Origin: Octopus vulgaris
Taxonomy: Eukaryota
Length of the DNA stretch: 64,000 nt
Reading direction: 5' to 3'
Assembly: GCA_951406725.2 (NCBI GenBank)
Contig: OX597833.1
Span: 30,690,001 to 30,754,000 of the forward strand
The notes beneath the pieces were generated by a model. It saw nothing but the letters and a program-made list of their open reading frames with translations, did no database searches and was not told where the DNA came from. Positions 1-42,775 of the stretch are shown here, piece after piece; the first letter of the stretch is position 1; every line of letters starts with the position of its first letter. A program made the position numbers and the translations under genes.

Positions 1-590
1 ACAACAGCATTCAATGTACTTTAGTCTGGTCTTTATCAACTATTTAGTAAAAATGGTTCCTCTGAAAAATTCTAATCCATGATGGAGGCTGTGCACATTG
101 GAATCATTGCAAAGGTCAAAATGTAGGAGACACATTGAACTTATTTGCTGTAGCATAGGTGTTAAATATGAATATGTATTGGCATCCACACTATCCTTTA
201 CCTTCTTTGCATAACTGTTGGTAAAGGCCGCCCGTAATTTTGAAGTCAAAGTTTATATTATAATCACTCCTGCAAAATGGCAGACCCCTTCTCTGCAGGA
301 GAACTACTGAATACAGATAACAGTATACTAGTAACTCATATATCACAGTAAATACAGAGAATCATAAATAAAATATATTGGTCTCAAGATAAATATCAAA
401 TGACAGATGTGCTGTTCCTATTAAGTTGTATTTGAACACTTGATTAATTAATGGTGGTAATATGAAACCTGTATGAGGCTTTATATGTCTTGGTAATGCA
501 ATATAAAAAAAATGGCCTATCTTAGCCAGAGTTCATCATTTAGATAATGATTTCACTGTACCTGATATTTTAATTCAAACTTCTCTACAT

Positions 591-2947: not shown

Positions 2948-3420
2948 TATAAATAAATAAATAAATAGATATATATATAAAATATAAAGTTATATCTTGA
3001 GTGACAACAACGCTCAAGATATACAACGGACTGGAAATAGAAGTGCTCCAATGAGCTGTATGCACTTTTTTATCCAAGGGGAGGCAATGCAAGCAACAAC
3101 CACAGGAACATCACAAAATTCAAAGATAGACCAAACACATACAAATCTTATATACTAATTTATATCTAAACAGTCTGACATTTAAAAAAATTTTTTAATT
3201 CAGGAATATATAAGTATCATATACAAATAAAAATCATATACAAATAAAAATATAAATATAAATATAAATTTTGCATATAACACGCTTAAAACTGTTAGAA
3301 TAAGAGAAATAAATATAATGATAATAAAATAAAAATATGGCATATCAAAAGACAAATAAAATTCCAGCGAATAGTACATAGAATATAATACATTTACAAG
3401 CTTACAAAAATATAGAAGTC

Positions 3421-3510
3421 CATCTACGGGCTGTTTTGAGGATGTGCCAATTAATAGACATATCAGTACTTAAAATAGTACTTAAAATTGGCACTCCCCT
3501 CATCAGGATG
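3421..3510 (-). ncRNA. Type I hammerhead ribozyme motif (mutated copy)
   Basis: Minus strand: CATC-CTGATGA-GGGGAGTGCCAATT...AATTGGCACATCCT-CAAAA-CAGCCCG-TA-GATG. GAAA is mutated in this copy. Confidence 0.7.
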
Positions 3511-3765
3511 TCCTATACAACACATATAAAACATGAACAAATACACAATCACATACTGGCCATTCTCAGAACACGGCATTTACGTACTCCCAGAAATTTT
3601 TTCAGCGATCCTGAAAGGAACTTTATACGCATACAATTCGATCCTGCCACACAGCGCCACTTGGACCATTTCACTTCAACACTTAATTTATTTTATCTTA
3701 TTTCAATTTTATAAATTCTCCCATATATGCAAAGCCACATATTCAGGTTTGAGTCCTTGACTAAC

Positions 3766-4021
3766 AGCTATTTTTTAAATAATTACATTACTATAGTTTT
3801 ATCTCGTTTACAACTCACTATACTTACTAAACTTAGTTCAATTATTATTGCTTAGCTCTACCTTTTATTGCTATTTCTATTTCTAAATTTCCTAGCTATT
3901 TTTTTATTAATTACATTACTTTAGTTATATCTTGTTTACCACTCACTATACTTACTAAACTTAACTCAATTGTTATTGCTTAGCTCTAACTCTTATTGCT
4001 ATTTCTATTTCTAAATTTCCT
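3766..4021. repeat. Two-copy tandem duplication of about 128 bp in the PLE-1 3' region
   Basis: AGCTATTTTTT...CTATTTCTATTTCTAAATTTCCT occurs twice in tandem. Confidence 0.8.
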
Positions 4022-4471
4022 ATGGAACGTCGAGTGGATCTTATGCATACATGCCGGTATTGCATCAGTGAACTTATTTAACACTGCGTTGTTGTAATTT
4101 TTCAATATAGCATATGCCTCCCTTATGCATAAACCGCATCTAGTGGACCCAATTCTATAAAGGGAGGCATGCGCAAGGATAGCCCATAATATTTTAAATT
4201 CAACATTCCTTTCCTTAAGGTCATTAACATGTAATGCCAATGTTGTAGAGGTCCTATATTTAGGATTGTTGAAAGAGCTCAGGTGGGATCGATACCTCTG
4301 CTTAAAGTCTACTGTGCTTCCAAAATATATTTTTCTCTGGCCTCCTTGAGCCTCAACACTACATTTATAAACTACATTTTCCTGGCGACAATTTCCGCTA
4401 ATCGGACGTTCTGATGGGTCCCTACAATTACATTTCTTCAACCTGCTACGGGGTCCTGTATTATTGATCAC
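3986..4471 (-). pseudogene. PLE GIY-YIG endonuclease domain
   Basis: CNCR...GNC..ENVVYKC...IYFGST..FKQRY..H...TTLA.HV..LK...W.IL...CGLCIRE...LNK is a PLE C-terminal GIY-YIG. It resembles the Hydra-type clade from memory. Confidence 0.88.
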
Positions 4472-5002
4472 TCCAAAACCATGCCCCCCCCCCCAGTACT
4501 ACGATCCACCATATCATTTACACCATCATTCGTACTATTTTCTGGTATAATTATTCTATTATTATTCTTACTATTACCATCATTATTATTTTTATTTTTA
4601 CTAATATTTTTATTACCATCACCACTACTATTAACACCATCATTACCACCCTGATAATCATTATAATCACTAATATCATCACCGACATCATTATTATGAT
4701 TATCTCTACTATTTGCATTATTTGTCACTCCTTCACAATCGATTTCAGAAGACGTACTATTAATATTAATACCATCTTCTATGTCGTTTATGAATTTTCC
4801 CTTAACGCTTCTGTCATCATTTCTATCATTATAGCGCCTTATTTTACTTCTGTTCAACGAAGCAATACTAGATCCGACATTGGGAGTGACTGAGTAGGCC
4901 AGCTTGATTGTTGACTTGTTACATATTGAATAGTACTTATGGTGTTTTGGGAAATTTTCCTTCAATAACTTAAAAAATAGCTTTGGTAAACCTTTCACCC
5001 TT
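4468..5002 (-). pseudogene. PLE RT-EN linker with Asn/Asp-rich insertion, frameshifted relative to the EN
   Basis: LFFKLLKENFPKHHKYYSICNKSTIKLAYSVTPN is a PLE linker motif. The frame changes at a homopolymer near 4484-4494. Confidence 0.75.
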
Positions 5003-5080
5003 AATGCCATTTTCTGAGAATGGCCGGTATGTGATTGTGTATTTGTGTATTTGTTCATGTTTTATATGTGTTGTATAGGA

Positions 5081-5173
5081 CATCCTGATGAAGGGAGTGC
5101 CAATTTTAAGTACTATTTTAAGTACTGATATGTCTAATATTAATTGGCACATCCCCGAAATGGCCCGTATATG
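5081..5173 (+). ncRNA. Type I hammerhead ribozyme motif (second PLE-1 arm)
   Basis: CATC-CTGATGA(5085-5091)-long stem II (GTGCCAATT/AATTGGCAC)-GAAA(5157-5160)-TGGCCCG-TA-TATG. The core is intact; stems I and III carry substitutions. Confidence 0.75.
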
Positions 5174-5629
5174 GACTTCTGTATATCTTATATTTTTGTA
5201 AGCTTGTATATGTATTATATTCTATGTACTATTCGCCGGAATTTTATTCATCTTTTGATATGCCATATTTTTATTTTATTATCATTATATTTATTTCTCT
5301 TATTCTAACAGTTTTAAGCGTGTTATATGCAAAATTTATATTTATATTTTTATTTGTATATGATACTTATATATTACTGAATTTTTTAACTTTTTAAAAT
5401 GTCGGACTGTTTAGATATAAATTAGTATATAAGATTTGTATGTGTTTGGTCTATCTTTGAATTTTGTGATGTTCCTGTGGTTGTTGCTTGCATTGCCTCC
5501 CTTTGGATAAAAAAGTGTATATATATATATATATATATATATATGTAGGTCCCGGGTTGAGTCGGGGTTAACCACAGTAAATAAGGTACTCAATACATAG
5601 CAGAGTAAATTAATTTATTTTATAGAAGG

Positions 5630-5680
5630 AGCTTCTACAGGACTAGAACTGTTTCATTCAAATGAAATCATCAGGAAGCT
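5630..5680 (-). ncRNA. Type I hammerhead ribozyme, intact core
   Basis: Exact reverse complement of 11447-11497. Confidence 0.88.
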
Positions 5681-6199
5681 TTGTGTCAAGAATAGTTTTG
5701 GCATTTATACATTTAGGCAGATTTAAAGGGGTGGTGGTGGGGGACTTTTTGGGGGTAGGCATGGCGCAAACTGTCTTTCTTAGGGAGTGGTCAAAAGAAT
5801 CAGTGATAAAGTAGATAAATGAATAAATAGAATAATAGAATAGAGTTTTAGGTAAATAAGAAGACTATATGCAAGCACACGCACACACATATCTACACAC
5901 ATATATATAAAAAAAGAATATACACACCCATACACACACACACTCATATATATACATACACATACACACACACATATATATACATATGTGTATACATGCA
6001 CACATATACACACATTTCATCCCTTATTTTATTTTTATCTTTATTTTTATTTTGACCTCGACCTACCCACCCGCCGACAAACATTTAGTGGCGGCTGAGG
6101 TCGACCCTCCCGAGGGAGCAAGCCCGCCTAAAAGAAAACCGTTTATTGCCCATCTCCCTTCCTTTCTATCTCTCTTCCCACGGATACGAACACAAACAC

Positions 6200-7023
6200 T
6201 CACACACACACACACACTCCAGACACACACACACACTCACACGCACACCCATACACATACACAAACGCGCATGTTCTATGTATACACATACATATACACA
6301 CACAAGTACTCATAAACGAACACATAAACGTACACATAACTATGTACACACAAAACCACATATATAAATGTACTTCAGTACACATAAACACACATGAACA
6401 TCTGCCCGCATATATAAACGCATATGCCTATATACAGACATTTGTGCATATAAACATACTTACGCATATATACGCATCCATACGCTTATAAATTCATATA
6501 TGCACACATGCACGCATACACGTATACATAAAAGCATACCTACATATACACACATATATATACATACATGCACGTATATACACATACGTACACGTACATA
6601 CAAATACATATCTACACACATACACATACATACAACTATACACATACAGAAATCTGCAGTACTATATATATACACACATATATCTACATATATATATATA
6701 TATATATACATACATATATATATACATACACACACATACACATATGTATATACCTACATATACATACACATATATGCTAACACCATCATATACATACCTA
6801 CATACACATACATCCATATATATCTATACATATACATACGTATATATAAATACATGCACATACTAATACACGTATGCATATCTACGCACATGCACGCACA
6901 CATATCTATCTACATATATAAGAAACCCAACAAGTCCATACATATACACATATACATATACGCGTACATACATACACATACATGTACACACATATATCCC
7001 CATATATATATACATCTATATAT

Positions 7024-7074
<51 letters not shown>

Positions 7075-7992
7075 CAATACACACATATATATATATATAC
7101 ACATACATACACATACACACATATATATATACATATACATACAAACACACACACATATACATACATACACCCACACAGAGGTATACAGGCATATACACAC
7201 ATATCTATACATACATATATATATATATATACACACGAACACACACATATACACATATATACATATATACACACCAATACACATACGCATACATAAATAT
7301 ATACATATGTATATACACATGCATACACATACACACACACGCGTGCATCTATATATACATAAATACATACAGGCATACATACATATACTTATATACATAT
7401 ACATACATGCATACACAAATAATAAATATATATACGTGCAAATACCCATACTCACACATACATATACGCGTACATGTACACATACATACATATAAACAAA
7501 CACATATATATAAATACACATATATATATATACATACATATACACATATATATACATACATACATATACATAAAACACACAAGCGTACATATATATATAT
7601 CCATACATACACATACACACATATATGTACACATTTAAAGATATATACATATGTAAATATACGTACACACATACATACGCATATTCATATTTACACCCAT
7701 ACACATACATATATATATATATATGTACACATACACACCCATAAACATATACACAAGCATATACCTACACGTAAAATGGACCCGTATACACACACACTCA
7801 TACACTTGTACATACACACACATATATATATGTACACACATATATATGCACATATACATATACACACATACATATACATACATACATACATACACATACA
7901 TATTTATCCATAAATACATATATGTACATATACATACACATACATCTACACACACATACATATACACATATATATACATACACACGTATATA

Positions 7993-8024
<32 letters not shown>

Positions 8025-8200
8025 CACACATACATATATATACACATGCATAAGCATGTACACATATACACAAGCACACGCATGCACGCCTTCACATACA
8101 CATGTACATACACTTTTGCACATACACTCACATACAAATACGTATATGCACTCGTATACATATATGTACGCACACGCACATATGCCAGCATCCATATATA
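6200..8200. repeat. Degenerate (CA)n/(TA)n low-complexity tract
   Basis: About 2 kb of mostly alternating purine-pyrimidine sequence; it is the source of the Y/I/H/T/C/V/M ORFs. Confidence 0.95.
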
Positions 8201-8278
8201 TGTGAGTAGTCTTAGGAGAGAAGGTAATTGGGGGTGATGAGGGGATGGTGGTGGGGGTGTTTTGTGGGTGGGGTGTCG

Positions 8279-8539
8279 TCAATCGGGTTGCCGGGTGGGT
8301 CTGTAGTTTTTATAGTTTGCATAAATTTTGTGCATACAGTTTGGGGAGTGTTCCGAGATCTTGTTGAGGAGAGGGCCTTTGGCGAACAAGATCTCCAGGC
8401 TCTCAGAAATGCAAAGGTCACAGCAGGTATGGCCTCCTGTGTACGAACGCGCCCTCTGTAGTAGTCTCCACTTGATCTTGAAGGGGATGGAGTTCCTTTT
8501 AAGGTACCAGATGTGGGCGGCGAGAGTAGTCTGGTTATA
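8279..8539 (-). pseudogene. C-terminal part of a PLE GIY-YIG endonuclease (not in the ORF track)
   Basis: Hand translation: YNQTTLAAHIWYLKRNSIPFKIKWRLLQRARSYTGGHTCCDLCISESLEILFAKGPLLNKISEHSPNCMHKIYANYKNYRPTRQPD*. Homologous to the end of 3986-4471. Confidence 0.85.
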
Positions 8540-8745
8540 TGTATATGTGTATATATATATATATATATACGTTTAAATATTTGTTGTGCAAGATTTTTTA
8601 TGTGAAGTCGTGTGTTGAAACAGATATTGTTATATTTCGGAATGGTCATATTGCCAGTTTAGCCAATAAAAACACACGCACTATATATTTGGTGTTATTT
8701 TGCTTCAGTGATATTTATTTTTTACATTAATCTTAATCTTATTTC

Positions 8746-8790
8746 GGCCAAAGTTCTTTCGTCACACTCCTGTGACCGCATCAGTGGTCC
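8746..8790 (-). ncRNA. Hammerhead-like motif with non-canonical core
   Basis: Minus strand: GGACCA-CTGATGCG-GTCAC-AGGAGT-GTGAC-GAAA-GAAC-TT-TGGCC. Confidence 0.55.
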
Positions 8791-9308
8791 TTTGTTTTCT
8801 TCTCACTTACTTGTGTCTCTCCTTACTAACCGTCAGCCATTTTGTATTTCTATTGTATGTCTTCATTTGCGCATGCTTATATCTCTATGTGCGTCTATGT
8901 TTATTTAGTGTGTGTGTGGGGGGGATGCCTGTAATATTTGTATCTTCTGGTTATATACATTCTTGTAATTTGTATTTTGTTTTTGTTGTTGTTGCTTTTG
9001 TTCTAATTTTATTCATGTGTTTACATCCACCCATTATTATCATTACATATGCTTGTATGTATGTATAACAACAATATTAGTAATAATAATAATAAATCTA
9101 ATCGAGAAAAAAAAAAAAAAAGAATATACATATACATATATATATACATACATATACATATACATATATATATATATATATATACATATATACACACATA
9201 TATACACATATGCATATACATATATATACACATATACATATATATAGATATTCATTTCTATTTCTTTAATTACCTGTGTATTTATTATGTTTGCAGGATC
9301 CACTATTG

Positions 9309-10705
9309 TCATATGTTGTGGTGTGCGCTATTGCTCCATTCTAGTTTTCTATTCAGGCTAGGTTTATTTTCTATTATATGTGTAGCTTCTGTAATTTGTC
9401 TAATTGTTGCATCTGTTCTATGTGTGGACAATATCTTAATCTCTATGTTATTGATTGATCCCCCGTGTTCTTGTTCGGCGTGTTGGTACAGAATCGATGA
9501 GCTTTTACCTTCCTTGAGTTGTCTCCAATGTTCATTCACCCGCTCACCAATGCTTCTTGCCGTTTCCCCTACGTATGTTACTGTCTTGTTACTGCATCGT
9601 CCCTCTATACATCTTATACTATAGACCACATTTCTGGCTTTACAGTTCGTTTGTGGGCTAAATCTACATACAGTGCAATAGTTATCCGTACAGAGAGTTC
9701 TACTAAAAGGATAGGTTCTACCAATTATAGATCTGATAGGGTTGCCTGGCTTTTCAACAACCTTAATTCTTAGTTTAAGTTTATCTAGGGTCCTTCTAAA
9801 GCGGTACGCTAGTTCACCTCCAGGGGTGGTGTCAACGAACATGACACTCTGGTATTTATGGCTATCATACCAAGAGTTGGCCTTCCTTATTTTCTTTTTT
9901 GTCCTTTCTATAGTGTTCCATGACTTGTTCCTATAGAGTGGGCAAATCCCATTCCTATCATTACATAATATATTATCAAATTTCTTCATGGCTCCTTTGT
10001 ATACTCTGATCCTTTCTTTATGGCTGTAACCTGAGAACTGCATGCGGTGAATGAAATACTGTATGTGTCTCTTTAATTCTGTAGGCTCGCACATGCGTGA
10101 CACATTTCTCATTATTCTGACGAGGTCTGCCATCAAAATATTGAATTTGGCATTGCCCGCAATGGCTGAGTTCCGGTGGATCAGGTATTTTGAGGCCATA
10201 GGTTTTGCATAGTATGAATGAAGGATTTGGGTTTTATTTTTCACAATTTCTAGCCAGAGTTCAGTGTCTAGTACTGGTAGTCTATGGTTGGGGTGTTTAG
10301 TGGGGTAGTCTATTGTGACCTTAATACTCTGGTGGATGGAGTTAGCTATTTGCTGGATGCTCTCCATAGTATTAGTTTCTATTACTATATCAACAGTACT
10401 TTCTTGTGGGGGTGCCTTTACTACTATATTGATATCATCAACATAGCGAGAGTACATGTTTACGAGTATGGATTTCTGCAGTAGGCATTCTTTAAGCCTT
10501 CTGTCCCACCATACCATGAAGAGGTTGGCCACATCACCAGCGATACTAACACCGATGGCTGCCCCCTCGTCCTGGGCATATATTTTATTATTAAATTTAA
10601 ATGTGTGGCCTTTTAGGGTAACTCTTATACTAGCTCCTAGTGCATGTGCGATCATTTTCTTTACCTGATGGACATTTGCGGGGCTCCGTATGGCTCTGGT
10701 CCATC
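9309..10705 (-). CDS. PLE reverse transcriptase plus GIY-YIG endonuclease, 5'-truncated but uninterrupted
   Basis: GAAIG (RT motif B), YSRYVDD (motif C), LPVLD, a Cys-rich linker CTDNYCTVC, and NVVY..C..YVGET.R...R..EH...E...LN. The frame stays open upstream of the annotated Met (10655) to the junction near 10705. Confidence 0.92.
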
Positions 10706-11511
10706 TGCGGGCAGATGTTCATGTGTGTTTATGTGTACTGAAGTACATTTATATATGTGGTTTTGTGTGTACATAGTTATGTGTACGTTTATGTGAAAGT
10801 GGGTACACTTATGAATGTATGAGCATGAGTACTTGTGTGTGTATATGTATGTGTATACATAGAACATGCGCGTTTGTGTATGTGTATGTGTATGAGTGTG
10901 CGTGTGAGTGTGTGTGTGTGTGTGTGTGGAGTGTGTGTGTGTGTGTGAGTGTTTGTGTTCGTATCCGTGGGAAGAGAGATAGAAAGGAAGGCAATAAACG
11001 GGTTTTCTTTTAGGCCGGCTTGCTCCCTCGGGAGGGTCTACCTAAATGTTTGTCCGCGGGTGGGTAGGTCGAGGTCAAAATAAAAATAAAGATAAAAATA
11101 AAATAAGGGAGGAAATGTGTGTGTATATGTGTGCATGTATACACATATGTATATATATGTGTATGTGTATGTATATATATGAGTGTGTGTGTGTATGGGT
11201 GTGTATATTCTTTTTTTATATATATGTGTGTAGATATGTGTGTGCGTGTGCTTGCATATAGTCTTCTTATTTACCTAAAACTCTATTCTATTATTCTATT
11301 TATTCATTTATCTACTTTATCACTGATTCTTTTGACCACTCCCCTAAGAAAGACAGTTTGCGCCATGCTTACCCCCAAAAAGTCCCCCACCACCACCCCT
11401 TTAAATCTGCCTAAATGTATAAATGCCAAAACTATTCTTGACACAAAGCTTCCTGATGATTTCATTTGAATGAAACAGTTCTAGTCCTGTAGAAGCTCCT
11501 TCTATAAAATA
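10706..11511 (+). mobile_element. Inverted copy of the PLE-A terminal region (pseudo-LTR)
   Basis: Reverse complement of approx. 5616-6410 with a few indels; ends in an A-run followed by (TA)n. Confidence 0.92.
11447..11497 (+). ncRNA. Type I hammerhead ribozyme, intact core
   Basis: Stem I AGCTTC/GAAGCT, CTGATGA 11453-11459, short stem II (TTC/GAA), GAAA 11472-11475, stem III ACAG/CTGT, and a GUA triplet with the predicted cut after 11491. Confidence 0.88.
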
Positions 11512-11514
11512 AAA

Positions 11515-17376: not shown

Positions 17377-19330
17377 CAATCAATGAGTTCAGCCATGCTC
17401 ATGACCTGACGGGATGCATAATAGGGAGTATGGACAAAGTGTCCCTACACCCATCCAATGATGTTGATTTTGCTGTGGAGAAAAGTGTGGTGGTGATTAG
17501 TGAGAGAGATGTGGAGTGCCATGGTGTTGACACTGAAGAACTAGGCCTCCTCCTGAGACTGACATGCAAGAATGATTACTTAGATAAAAAATGGCCTTAG
17601 TTGTTTCTACCTCACTAGATCAATAAAAGTAGATCCCCCCCTCCCACTATAACTTCTATGACCAAGAAGACCCCTAAAGAGAAATAGAATGGGTGGACCA
17701 GAGCTTTATGGACCTCTGAAAATAATGATCAGGTTAAAAAGATGGTTGCACAGGTGATGGGTGTAAGTACCAAGACCACACTCAAGGGCCATATATTTAA
17801 ATTTAATAGCAAGATATACACCCAAAAGGAAGGTGCAGCTATTGGTGTCAGTTATTGCTGGGGATGTGGCTAACCTATTTATGGTATGGTGGGATAGGAG
17901 ACATAAAGAGAAATTAGCAGAGAACTCCATAAACCTAACCATGTACTCCCGTTACATGAATACTATCAACATAGCAGTCAAAGCACCCTTACAAGACAAT
18001 GTTGATGATCTAGAAGCTAACGCTATGGAGAGCATCCAGCAAATAGCTAACTCCATCCACCAGAGAAGTAACGATAGACTACCCTAGTAAGCACCCTAAC
18101 TATAGATTACCTGTTTTACACACTGAACTCTGACTAGAAACAAAGAACGGTAAGGTCCCGATCCTTCACTCTCATTATGCCAAACCCATGGGCTCTAAGT
18201 ACTTTGTTCACCAGAATGCAATGATTGCATACAACGCCAAGTTCAACATTCTTATAGCTGACTTGGTGAGAGTGATGAGGAATGTGTCTCACATGTGCGA
18301 CCCTATGGAATTGGAAAGACACTTACAACACTTCATCCACCGCTACAACCAAAGAGACAGGATGAGAGCATACAAAGGAGCCAGGACTGAGTACAAAGAC
18401 ATCACAGAGAGTGATGCTAAAGGGATCTGCCTGCTGTACAGGAGTAAATCCTGGAACAGCACAGAAAAGACCAGTAATAAGATAAATAAGGACAACACTT
18501 GGTATGACAACAAAAAATACCAGAGTGTCATGGCAGCAAACTCGCACGTCTTTTTAGAAAAAACATTAAGTAAGGCTAATCTACGAATTAAAGTAATAGA
18601 AAGGCCTGGTGCCCCTTTAAAATCCCTGATCTGCAATACCTATTCCTTTGATAAGTTCCCCCGTACAATTGTGTTGTATGTAGGATGAACCCACAGGCTA
18701 ACTGTGAGGTTAGGAATGTAGTGTATAGCTTATGATGTACTTAGGATGGTGCAGAAACATGACAACTGCCTACATTGGTGGGAGTTCAAAGAGAAAAGCT
18801 CATCAGTGCTCTACCAACATGCTCAAGCAGAACATGGAGGCTTGATTAATAGCATAGAGGTTAAAGTACTATCGACACATAGAACTGACATGACATTTAG
18901 ACAGATCAAAGAGACTACACACATAGTAGTAGAAAGACCAAACCTCAACAGAAAATGCAAATAGAACAGTAACATCCACTACCACACCACATAACTAGAC
19001 AGAAGGGATGAGAAGTGAGAGGAAAACACAAAATTGTAAAAAATACACAGAAACATACAGGGTAAATAGATATATATGCACTTGCCTGTTATACTTATGA
19101 GAAATAAAAGTAGATGTATGAAAAAATAAATATATAAATATATTTGTCACATACCTGTGATAAATATAAGACAGAGATAAGCAAATAAATAAATGAAACT
19201 ATATAAAGGGCATGGATACATACAACATATGAAGCAGACCCAGACACACACAAAAGAAATTTCATGGATGGTCATATCAATATCAGTAACACAATTAACA
19301 ACAACAGCAGCAATAACAGCAACAACTACC
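17377..19330 (+). mobile_element. Decayed PLE related to PLE-B
   Basis: IIGSMD.VSLHPS (RT motif A), [32 protein letters not shown] and LYQHAQAEHGG, with many stops and frameshifts. Confidence 0.9.
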
Positions 19331-40176: not shown

Positions 40177-41517
40177 TTAACGGTATCGAACCGGTGGCAG
40201 AATGTTCTTTCTCCATCTGGTGGATCTTGTGCTTCGCACCGGTGTCCGAGGTGTGTTGTTGGGCTGCTGATAGGTGGTTGGTGCACGTTGGGGTGATGAT
40301 TCTGTGGGTGTTGTCACTAATGCAGCAGGTGTTGTACACGTTGTCCTCGACAGCTCTGGTGTTGGGCGGATGTGGGCCCTGTTGCGTCTCAGCTGCCTAC
40401 CAGATTCTGTTTCTATTATATATGATCTTGGAGTTACAGCTCTACTGACAACCTGTGCTGGGATCCATGTTTTAGTTATGGGATCTTGAGTATGCACATG
40501 TTGTCCTCCAAGTATCTCAGGTAAATATTGTGCATGTTTGTTGTAATACCTCTGTGATTGTTCTTGAGTGGCTGCTAGCTTTGCCTTTGTCTCTTCCTGG
40601 TCAATAGGAGGTTGGATCTTAGTTGGCAGGGTAGTTTTGTACTTCCTGCCATTCAGCAATTCTGCTGGGGATTTCATATCAGCTCTCAGTGGTGTCGCTC
40701 GTAGGGACAGAAGTGCCAGGTGTGGGTCTTCCTTAGTCTCTCGGCATTTGACTAGTGTTCTCTTCACTGTCTGCACCTATCTTTCTATAAACCCATGGCC
40801 TTTGGGGTAGTGTGGAGATGAAGTTGTAATATTGAACCCATACTCATCGGCTAGCTTTTTGAATTCTTGTGATGTGAACTGGGTTCCATTGTCACATATG
40901 ATCTGCTCTGGTATTCCTTGCTCTGCTAGAAGTCCTCGAGCCACTGTAGTGATTGTTTTGGCTGTCAGGTCTTTCCCTTTTCTCACAAATGGAAATTTGG
41001 AGTAGTAGCAGGCCATTATCAAATACCATTCTTGGCCCTCTGTGAACAGATCTACTCCAATAGTTTGCCATGGCCTTCTTGGGATGTCACTAGATATCAT
41101 TTCCTCCTTTTGTTGTGAGTTTCTGTACTTTTGACAGATGTGGCATGTAGAAACTGTCTTTTCTATGTCTTTGTACATGCCTACTCAATATACTGCTGAC
41201 TTGGCTCGGAGCTTGCATTTCTCCATTCCAAGATGCCCTTGGTGGATCTTGTCAAGAATCTCTTCTTGCATTGACTTGGGTACAATTATTCGGGATCCAG
41301 CCATCAGGATTCCATTCTCCACTGATATATCATCATGGATGGCCCAATATTCACGAATCAGGGGTTGCACCTGATGTCGCTTTTCTGGCCACCCCTGAAT
41401 CACCATCTGAGTAAGGAGCTGAAGTTCTTCATCTTTGCTGGTCTCCTCTTTGATTTCCGCTAGCTTTGTGGTTGTCACATTTACAATGTGGTGGACCTTT
41501 ATGCTTAGTCCTTCCAT
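40177..41517 (-). pseudogene. Integrase region with two in-frame stops
   Basis: GWP, IHQGHLG...CHIC (HHCC), PWQTIGVDLF, ICDNGTQF and SSPHYPKGHGFIER. Confidence 0.92.
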
Positions 41518-41541
41518 CTCCTGTTTGTTTGTGATTGGTGG

Positions 41542-42775
41542 TCAGTCTTTGATAGGCATATCACTGTCAATCCTGCTTGGAGCTGCTTTCACTTCAGCAT
41601 TGATTGACACAATATTTAGCTTTTTGCAGGTATTGAGTCCAAGAATTGCTGACCCTTCTGTTCTTGTGACATAAAAAGAACACTTAATTATTTTTCCTTT
41701 GTGTGTCCCTGTGATAGTTGTTTTACCCAATTGTGGAATCTGGTTCCTCCATACGTAGTGAGGATTACATCACTTGGTGTGAGGATTCCTTTCCTGACCC
41801 TATCCTCTTCTGGGAACATCTTCTTGTATAAGCTGACAGGCAAGATATCACTCTGGACCCCAGTGTCAATCTTTAGCCTTAAGTCTATGTTTGTTCGTTT
41901 CCTGCCAGACTTCTTCTGTATTTTTATTGTTGTGTATGCCTCATCTTCTTTCTTCCGGTTGTCCTTTCCCATCTCATGCACATTTATTATGCCGACTGCC
42001 AAGAATTCCTCCTCTGAGGTGTTTTGTTCCTGTTGTTGTGCATGTATATCTCTTCTATTTCTGCTCCTCTTTGAAAATTGGGGCTTGTATTTCTGGGATT
42101 TTATTAACCTACACATTTTTTCCCAGTGGTTAAGTTTTCCACATGCTTTGCAGTGTGTACCGAATACAGGACATTTTTTTCGGTTATTAAATTCATGCTC
42201 TGTACCACAGTACTGGCATGTTCTTTGTTTGTGGGTATGTGTTCTGTGCCTAGATACAATATCTACACTGCTATCTAGTGAGCTTGTTTGTAAGCTAAGT
42301 GAGGCCATTTGTTTGGTAGTGGCTTCGAATGCTCTTGCAGTGTCTACTGCTTCTACCAACTGGAGAGTGTCCTTACCTATTAGTGATTTTTGTACTTCTT
42401 TGTGGGTACACCCCCATATTAATTGGTCTACAATTCTCTCCTCCCTGTCTTTGAATTTGCATTTCTCTGCAACATTTTTCAGTCTTGACAGGAAATTGTC
42501 AATTGTTTCTTGTGGGTCTTGTTTCAGGCCCTGGAATTCGTATCTGTGAATTCTATGGTTCGACCTGGGCTCTAGGTGCCTTTCAAATTTCTCAAGAAGT
42601 GTGTCTGGGTTATTGCAGTCCGATTCTGACATATCCCAGCTATTGAATAGGTCTATTCCTTTATTACCTGACCATAAAAGGATATAGCTTACCTTCTCAT
42701 CATCATATGTGCCTTTCAGGAAACTTTTGAAAGCTAGTTGAGTTTTTTGTTTGAATTTTTAAAATGCTTCTACGA
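41542..42775 (-). pseudogene. Gag (two Cys/His knuckles) and aspartic protease
   Basis: CQYCGTEH...CP, CKACGKLNHWEKMC, LKIDTG and AILG. There is an early stop and a frameshift. Confidence 0.9.

What the first reader, a model, noticed from the sequence alone, without database searches (positions are those of the whole stretch)
5630..11497. Identical, intact, outward-pointing hammerhead ribozymes at both ends of the palindrome
Seen: the 51 nt motif is identical at 5630-5680 (-) and 11447-11497 (+), although the arms differ by indels elsewhere. It has a 6 bp stem I, CUGAUGA, a very short stem II opened by U-U, GAAA, a 4 bp stem III with an 8 nt loop, and a GUA site. Unlike typical minimal PLE hammerheads, stem III is stable and not palindromic, so it might cleave as a monomer (inference). 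Read-through on either strand could fold into about 800 bp of dsRNA and be cut at its 3' arm.
Basis: partly seen in the sequence, partly recalled or inferred. Interest (0 to 1): 0.7.

Follow-up and report, generated by a model that had tools for sequence, protein, structure and literature searches.

The report
Hammerhead caps Hydra retrotransposon mini-palindromes
The two matching hammerhead-ribozyme motifs are the back-to-back ends of a common Penelope-type jumping gene, a known layout, but thousands of sister copies indicate that the element's RNA likely starts exactly at the ribozyme and is likely copied uncut from two fixed points, one onto each DNA strand.

Summary
The identical 51-nt motifs are real type I hammerhead motifs, but identity is expected: the arms are young copies (chance about 0.27). 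They end family A, a Hydra-clade Penelope-like element with about 8,600 motif copies in this genome. The RT gene inside the palindrome belongs to an unrelated element, family B. Outward pairs, the U·U opener and a 4-bp stem III are all in print for Hydra elements. Stem III's loop is palindromic (CUAG), and this copy's best monomer fold hides the GAAA core, so monomer cleavage is doubtful. Family variation spares all 38 core and stem columns, so the fold looks selected. The new part is the family footprint. Of 69 sampled insertions, 45 are ~200-bp palindromes. Arms end at the ribozyme's first base, often with an extra G, and almost never at the cut site. No second arm carries the tail (0 of 51), and both arms share a subfamily (32 of 35). 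This suggests a capped, uncut RNA primed at two internal sites. The scan already noted Hydra identity and the tail rule elsewhere in this genome.

The parts
5546..8537 (-). Family A (Hydra-clade PLE) left arm: 5'-truncated copy with endonuclease C-terminus, microsatellite-rich 3' UTR, hammerhead and tail
5546..5613 (-). 68-nt tail, present on this arm only; in ORF-bearing copies it continues into the ORF's 5' region; abuts (TA)n at about 5517-5545
5630..5680 (-). Type I hammerhead motif; predicted cut 3' of A at 5636; its position 1 (5680) is the inferred transcription start
8279..8537 (-). Family A GIY-YIG endonuclease C-terminal remnant (HIWYLK, CDLC, LLNK, CMH motifs)
8538..8570 (.). TA-rich spacer, target of family B or junction filler; origin unresolved
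8571..10705 (-). Family B PLE, 5'-truncated, with tailed 3' end at 8571; RT C-half plus GIY-YIG ORF 9309-10705; not the source of the hammerheads
8746..8790 (-). Family B's own hammerhead-like motif with C at core position 9 (not tested further)
10706..11513 (+). Family A right arm: inverted, 5'-truncated, tailless; ends 16 nt after the hammerhead, followed by A-run and (TA)n to about 11551
11447..11497 (+). Type I hammerhead motif, identical to the left copy; predicted cut 3' of A at 11491

Best explanation
The two motifs are the hammerheads in the pseudo-LTR ends of a Hydra-clade Penelope-like element inserted as a head-to-head pair in a (TA)n tract, and the pair was likely made by two reverse-transcription events, one on each target strand, from an uncut RNA. 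SHOWN: family A identity; one tailed and one tailless arm; an unrelated element B in the middle; conservation that tracks the fold; the family-wide pile-up of arm ends at hammerhead position 1. INFERRED: the mRNA is capped at position 1, so the ribozyme is its first 51 nt. The enzyme primes at +67 and +135 of the same RNA, or of RNAs from one locus. Priming at the 5' copy of these sites gives the ~200-bp palindromes; priming at the 3' copy gives long arms as in this window. The ribozyme therefore does not make the template ends. It most likely cuts slowly, as a stem-III-swapped dimer or with protein help, which would decap the mRNA and remove the priming sites, acting as a brake or a multimer-processing step.
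For: Family A EN at 8279-8537, present in all 30 EN-anchored loci. No family A feature in 29 B-anchored regions. A and B proteins unrelated (best E 0.16). Hydra motifs seen in A copies match Craig 2021. Second arm found in 51 of 69 position-ordered loci, tailed in 0; 45 of 69 are mini-palindromes. Arm starts: 75 of 120 at -1..12, 6 at -15..-2, 2 at 39..52. G before position 1 in 16 of 21 short non-overlap arms vs 0 of 13 long arms (p = 4e-6 against 0.27), 0 of 84 long arms, and 874 genome-wide. 7 of 18 ORF-start copies begin at positions 1-8 (read by eye). Arms concordant in 32 of 35 loci (random 8.5); tailless arm reaches further 5' in 15 of 45, tailed arm in 15. Subfamily variation in 0 of 38 core/stem columns vs 17 of 50 upstream columns (p = 1.8e-5) and 4 of 5 at N7 + loop II. 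In vitro precedent for two internal start sites, both strands, an uncut template and a protein-assisted HHR (PMC11167929).
Against: No cleavage, transcription start or expression was measured. In 20 of 30 G loci the G could come from the partner arm, and some of the other 10 from duplicated fragments. The AGCT palindrome at positions 1-4 favours joins there and accounts for 1,200 arms. Same-subfamily arms also fit fold-back copying. No compensatory base-pair change exists inside the family, so the structure rests on invariance, and a promoter or protein site could add to that invariance. The palindromic-loop dimer energy is matched by 12.5% of loop permutations. The sample comes from one chromosome, needs one exact tail 20-mer and under-represents one subfamily. 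Family B shows only a weak edge (7 of 46 arms in 9 nt).
Confidence: 0.68

Rival explanations
1. Inverted pairs arise by self-priming or fold-back copying of one strand (Arkhipova 2013 proposed self-priming on an antisense template), not by two priming events.
For: Palindromic AGCT junction in 1,200 arms; microhomology at 25 of 45 junctions; arms of one subfamily in 32 of 35; PMC3846280 passages.
Against: In 15 of 45 loci the tailless arm holds 5' sequence that the tailed arm lacks, while lacking the tail itself, so neither arm can be a full copy of the other without later deletion. One locus has an extra G on both arms with a 1-nt spacer (L352/L353).
Confidence: 0.15
2. One reading: a monomer-active ribozyme that cuts the 3' arm of a read-through double-stranded RNA at this locus.
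For: Complete core; stems I and III form in the MFE. Fungal PLE hammerheads with large helix III cleave as monomers (PMC4209133). Arm duplex -1351 kcal/mol.
Against: Active fold P = 0.004, decoy pair P = 0.72; centred palindrome in loop III; the antisense copy is on the same transcript; the layout is the family norm, not locus-specific.
Confidence: 0.1
3. The edge at position 1 is an RT stop, nuclease cut or splice acceptor (positions 0-2 read YAG in most subfamilies) on a longer RNA, not a capped start.
For: In D. virilis Penelope an intron ends at the 5' end of helix I (PMC4209133); YAG seen.
Against: No shared upstream exon at 30 inspected junctions; arms include the AG itself; the extra base is G, never found there in long copies.
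Confidence: 0.15
4. The motif is catalytically dead in this subfamily and is conserved as an internal promoter or RT-binding element.
For: U·U at 10.1-11.1, an AU-rich 3-bp stem II and a decoy hairpin; cut-site ends almost absent from genomic copies; Penelope has an internal promoter (PMC2377424).
Against: Variation falls on exactly the positions a hammerhead leaves free; the same design recurs across Hydra families with different stem sequences.
Confidence: 0.15

Closest known systems
Hydra-clade PLEs and their hammerheads (Craig et al. 2021, PMC8557442; passages, section 11, supplement searches and part 2 of 59 read)
   Same: DKT, CxCX5C linker, CxxC/CxH in the EN, (TA)n target, inverted 5'-truncated copy, tail at one end; U·U opener in 14 of 25 families; ACAG/CUGU stem III with GUA in several; identical motif on both strands in Penelope-13_HM.
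   Different: Loop III 8 nt with a palindrome (1-3 nt in File S2); 3' UTR about 2.7 kb so the element exceeds 3 kb; RWR instead of RWK; tail 68 nt instead of 30-40; not the same sequence as Hydra-1_Obim (compared by eye).
Poseidon_Ac in vitro (Frangieh et al. 2024, PMC11167929; parts 1-2 of 4 read, supplements not seen)
   Same: Two internal RT start sites that bound the tail, both strands extended, uncut RNA as template, HHR near the ORF start.
   Different: Other clade and in vitro only; the text read reports no mini-palindromes, no start at the ribozyme and no extra G.
Metazoan minimal PLE hammerheads (Cervera & De la Pena 2014, PMC4209133; parts 1-2 of 4 read)
   Same: Type I, in pLTRs, palindromic loop 3, dimer model; dual motifs 100-700 bp apart on opposite strands noted in Schistosoma.
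   Different: Those have G10.1-C11.1, long helix II and almost no helix III; the opposite-strand pairs were not explained.
Animal non-LTR retrozymes (Li et al. 2026, 10.64898/2026.07.22.740005; part 1 of 5 read)
   Same: Type I HHR repeats derived from pLTRs; family A has one 271-bp tandem array.
   Different: The mini-palindromes are head-to-head with locus-specific junctions, so they look like separate insertion products, not a tandem family.

Membership tests
Type I hammerhead ribozyme | Core C3-U4-G5-A6-N7-G8-A9, G12-A13-A14, A15.1-U16.1, NUH | tested here: met
   invariant at subfamily level
Type I hammerhead ribozyme | Three helices with open stem I | tested here: met
   6, 3 and 4 bp possible; stem II not favoured in the MFE
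Type I hammerhead ribozyme | G10.1-C11.1 pair (conserved in canonical and minimal forms) | tested here: not met
   U·U in 84 of 84 arms; listed as canonical for Hydra in Craig File S2
Type I hammerhead ribozyme | Covariation in stems | tested here: inconclusive
   no paired column varies at subfamily level
Type I hammerhead ribozyme | Match to an Rfam hammerhead model | tested here: not met
Type I hammerhead ribozyme | Self-cleavage | not testable with these tools
   only contigs were available
Hydra-clade PLE (family A) | Single ORF with RT and C-terminal GIY-YIG | tested here: met
   seen across broken copies L185, L196, L198; no single intact ORF inspected
Hydra-clade PLE (family A) | DKT motif; CxCX5C linker; CxxC and CxH around E and N | tested here: met
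   SDKTK, CNCPDKTTC, CDLC and CMH vs section 11
Hydra-clade PLE (family A) | RWK motif | tested here: inconclusive
   RWR at the equivalent place
Hydra-clade PLE (family A) | (TA)n target, HHR in pLTR, inverted copy, tail | tested here: met
Hydra-clade PLE (family A) | Length generally under 3 kb | tested here: not met
   3' UTR alone about 2.7 kb, mostly microsatellite
Hydra-clade PLE (family A) | Placement in an RT phylogeny | not tested
   reference sequences were only read in the supplement; 368 mostly unnamed homologues at 40-54% identity among the 120 listed
Non-LTR retrozyme | Two or more tandem units each with an HHR | tested here: not met
   this locus and the mini-palindromes are inverted; only one array seen elsewhere

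The most novel reading that the evidence does not exclude
Thousands of ~200-bp palindromes are a fossil record of the PLE integration step. A capped mRNA that begins at the first base of its hammerhead is reverse-transcribed, uncut, from two fixed internal sites by two active sites working on opposite target strands, and the two cDNAs are then joined end to end. Most insertions are abortive because the 5' priming site is used. The ribozyme is a dimer-gated decapping switch rather than a template-maturing device.
Probability: 0.5. Interest if true: 0.62.

Novelty: new member of a known kind. Interest (0 to 1): 0.42.

Why it matters
How PLEs form inverted repeats and what their hammerheads do are stated as open in Craig 2021. 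The feature as reported is ordinary. The family footprint, however, gives in vivo support for the internal-initiation model shown so far for one element in vitro. It argues against cleaved or circular RNA as the main template here, and it names exact positions (+1, +45/46, +67, +135) to test. It also implies thousands of short perfect hairpins in a genome where they could feed RNA editing.

Tried and rejected
Rfam: no hammerhead hit, only microsatellite-driven miRNA noise. My first assumption that the central ORF belongs to the hammerhead element was rejected. output was swamped by microsatellite hits and cut; repeated. One search used a reference that was itself a palindrome and gave false arm starts near -160; redone. 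One of 70 loci (L234) was dropped for lack of the anchor; opposite arms of long copies often lie outside the fetched stretch. One search included loci picked by similarity to the motif; the unbiased version is. Sequencing runs: no RNA holder listed as such; all laid runs were contigs, so no start, end or cut could be seen. Lunse et al. 2017 was not held and is known to me only through the review PMC6765202 (passages); its variant catalogue may already hold this motif. PMC13000458 had nothing on caps. Earlier-findings look-ups by words and by sequence were blank. Covariation could not be scored because stems do not vary. No tree was built.
Full report
OBSERVATION. The 51-mers at 5630-5680(-) and 11447-11497(+) are identical and can form a type I hammerhead with the cut 3' of A11491 / A5636. 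They sit in a 144-bp exact block within arms that are 766/775 identical with 12 indels. At that rate an untouched 51-mer has P = 0.27. Rfam finds no hammerhead.

ANATOMY. The 5.9-kb structure is a composite. The RT-GIY-YIG ORF at 9309-10705(-) belongs to family B. B is young: 94 scored matches at 99-100% identity, several with 1310-1312-aa open frames. None of 29 B-anchored regions holds a family A feature. Family A's own endonuclease end is at 8279-8537(-), and it continues upstream into a GIY-YIG/RT ORF in other copies. The A and B proteins do not align. Layout: (TA)n, A left arm 5546-8537 with a 68-nt tail, TA-rich 8538-8570, B 8571-10705, tailless A right arm 10706-11513, (TA)n. Whether B inserted later or was picked up by a template switch is unresolved. 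The genome (G000, 2.8 Gb) looks octopus-like; that is my inference.

CLASSIFICATION. Family A shows DKT, the CxCX5C linker, CxxC/CxH and (TA)n targeting, which Craig 2021 gives for the Hydra clade; RT motifs match Hydra sequences in the supplement by eye. Craig describes the inverted 5'-truncated copy and the one-sided tail. File S2 lists 25 Hydra families: 14 open stem II with U·U, several have ACAG/CUGU stem III with GUA, and Penelope-13_HM has the same motif on both strands. So the reported feature is in print. The 8-nt loop III is longer than the 1-3 nt listed there.

IS THE FOLD SELECTED? In 41 long arms chosen by flanking anchors, subfamily-level variation occurs in 17 of 50 upstream columns, 0 of 38 core and stem columns (p = 1.8e-5), 4 of 5 at N7 and loop II, and 1 of 8 in loop III. 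Public contigs from three coded organisms show their main variants at N7 and loop II. The one loop III variant lengthens the centred CUAG palindrome to 6 nt and lowers the homodimer energy from -12.8 to -15.2 kcal/mol; the hairpin is -1.4. However, 12.5% of 840 loop permutations do as well as the native loop, so the dimer is suggested, not shown. In this window's haplotype a slipped stem II buries GAA (active fold P = 0.004; decoy pair 0.72); U18 haplotypes weaken the decoy to 0.13-0.33. No compensatory changes exist within the family.

FAMILY FOOTPRINT. Exact counts in G000: tail 20-mer 4,146; hammerhead 3' half 8,572; positions 1-26 5,368; with ten upstream bases 2,789 (slightly shorter pattern); AGCT-overlap junction 1,200 arms; G before position 1 874. 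Of the first 70 tail matches on contig C1, 69 were usable. An opposite arm was found in 51, none tailed; 45 are palindromes of 73-228 bp. Of 120 arms, 75 start at -1..12, 6 at -15..-2 and 2 at 39..52 around the cut. Among arms containing position 1, G precedes it in 16 of 21 short non-overlap arms and 0 of 13 long arms. In 20 of 30 inspected G loci the partner arm could supply the G (three loci were counted from both arms). The clearest cases join the G directly to (TA)n or unrelated DNA, or carry it on both arms (L333, L336, L352/L353). An extra G is read as a copied cap for L1 and SVA (PMC2912911 passage). The tail runs into the ORF start, and 7 of 18 such copies begin at positions 1-8; 5 have long upstream pLTRs (by eye). 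Both arms share diagnostic bases in 32 of 35 loci (random 8.5), yet the tailless arm reaches further 5' in 15 of 45 and the tailed arm in 15. Family B also makes mini-palindromes (0 of 16 opposite arms tailed), with a weaker edge about 60 nt upstream of its own motif.

MECHANISM (inferred). The mRNA starts, capped, at the first base of stem I. The protein primes both target strands at two internal sites (+67, +135), as shown in vitro for Poseidon_Ac, where uncut RNA is the substrate and the HHR needs protein. Use of the 5' copy of these sites yields run-off cDNAs that join into ~200-bp palindromes; use of the 3' copy yields long arms, as here. Cut RNA leaves almost no genomic trace, so the ribozyme most likely decaps or processes transcripts under dimer or protein control.

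READ-THROUGH RNA. The arms would pair (-1351 kcal/mol), which should trap rather than free the ribozyme. Three of four runs guessed to be RNA show A-to-G at loop III A37 in a UAG context (6-16% of depth). It is not listed at 5% in the four runs and occurs in 0 of 84 genomic arms. This is a family-level hint only: contigs, RNA status unconfirmed, no matched DNA.

NOVELTY. The motif pair is a new member of a known kind. I found no paper describing a PLE start at the hammerhead, cap-G junctions or same-template mini-palindromes in searches, but Lunse 2017 and several supplements were not seen. Cervera 2014 noted opposite-strand pairs 100-700 bp apart without explanation. Earlier notes of this scan reached Hydra identity and the short-end/long-end rule on other DNA of this genome, and proposed starts at ribozyme boundaries for other repeats.

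Noticed in passing
window 3059-5521: A second, older PLE palindrome shares the (TA)n tract: arms 88% identical, Hydra-like GIY-YIG remnant at 3986-4498(-), and a different hammerhead with a very long stem II and small palindromic stem III, damaged in each arm (about 5081-5173 + and 3419-3511 -).
   Followed up: partly
window 8571-10705; L061+L062: Family B looks currently active: many identical copies, a 1312-aa ORF with a long Asn-rich stretch, a CX4CxxC linker (Neptune-like by Craig's description; clade not tested), 2,249 exact tail matches, 53-nt tail.
   Followed up: partly
window 8746-8790 (-): Family B hammerhead-like motif with C at core position 9 and a 6-bp stem II; activity unknown.
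   Followed up: no
G000:C8:91475367-91483204 (L257-L269): Array of about thirty 271-bp family A units, each with the hammerhead, in two opposed blocks: retrozyme-like.
   Followed up: partly
L250, L252, L253: Short direct repeats in which one unit's ORF-start region joins straight to hammerhead position 1 of the next, suggesting template jumps from the RNA 5' end.
   Followed up: partly
window 5644 and 5637: T>C and A>G differences in contigs of runs guessed to be RNA, not listed in the runs: possible editing on both strands of palindromic transcripts.
   Followed up: partly
window 18068-18688 (+): Decayed fragment of a relative of family B's ORF (74% inverted match to 10044-10319).
   Followed up: no
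window 40177-42758 (-): Broken LTR-retrotransposon-like region with gag/protease-like and integrase C-terminal-like frames (by eye; no significant Pfam hit).
   Followed up: no
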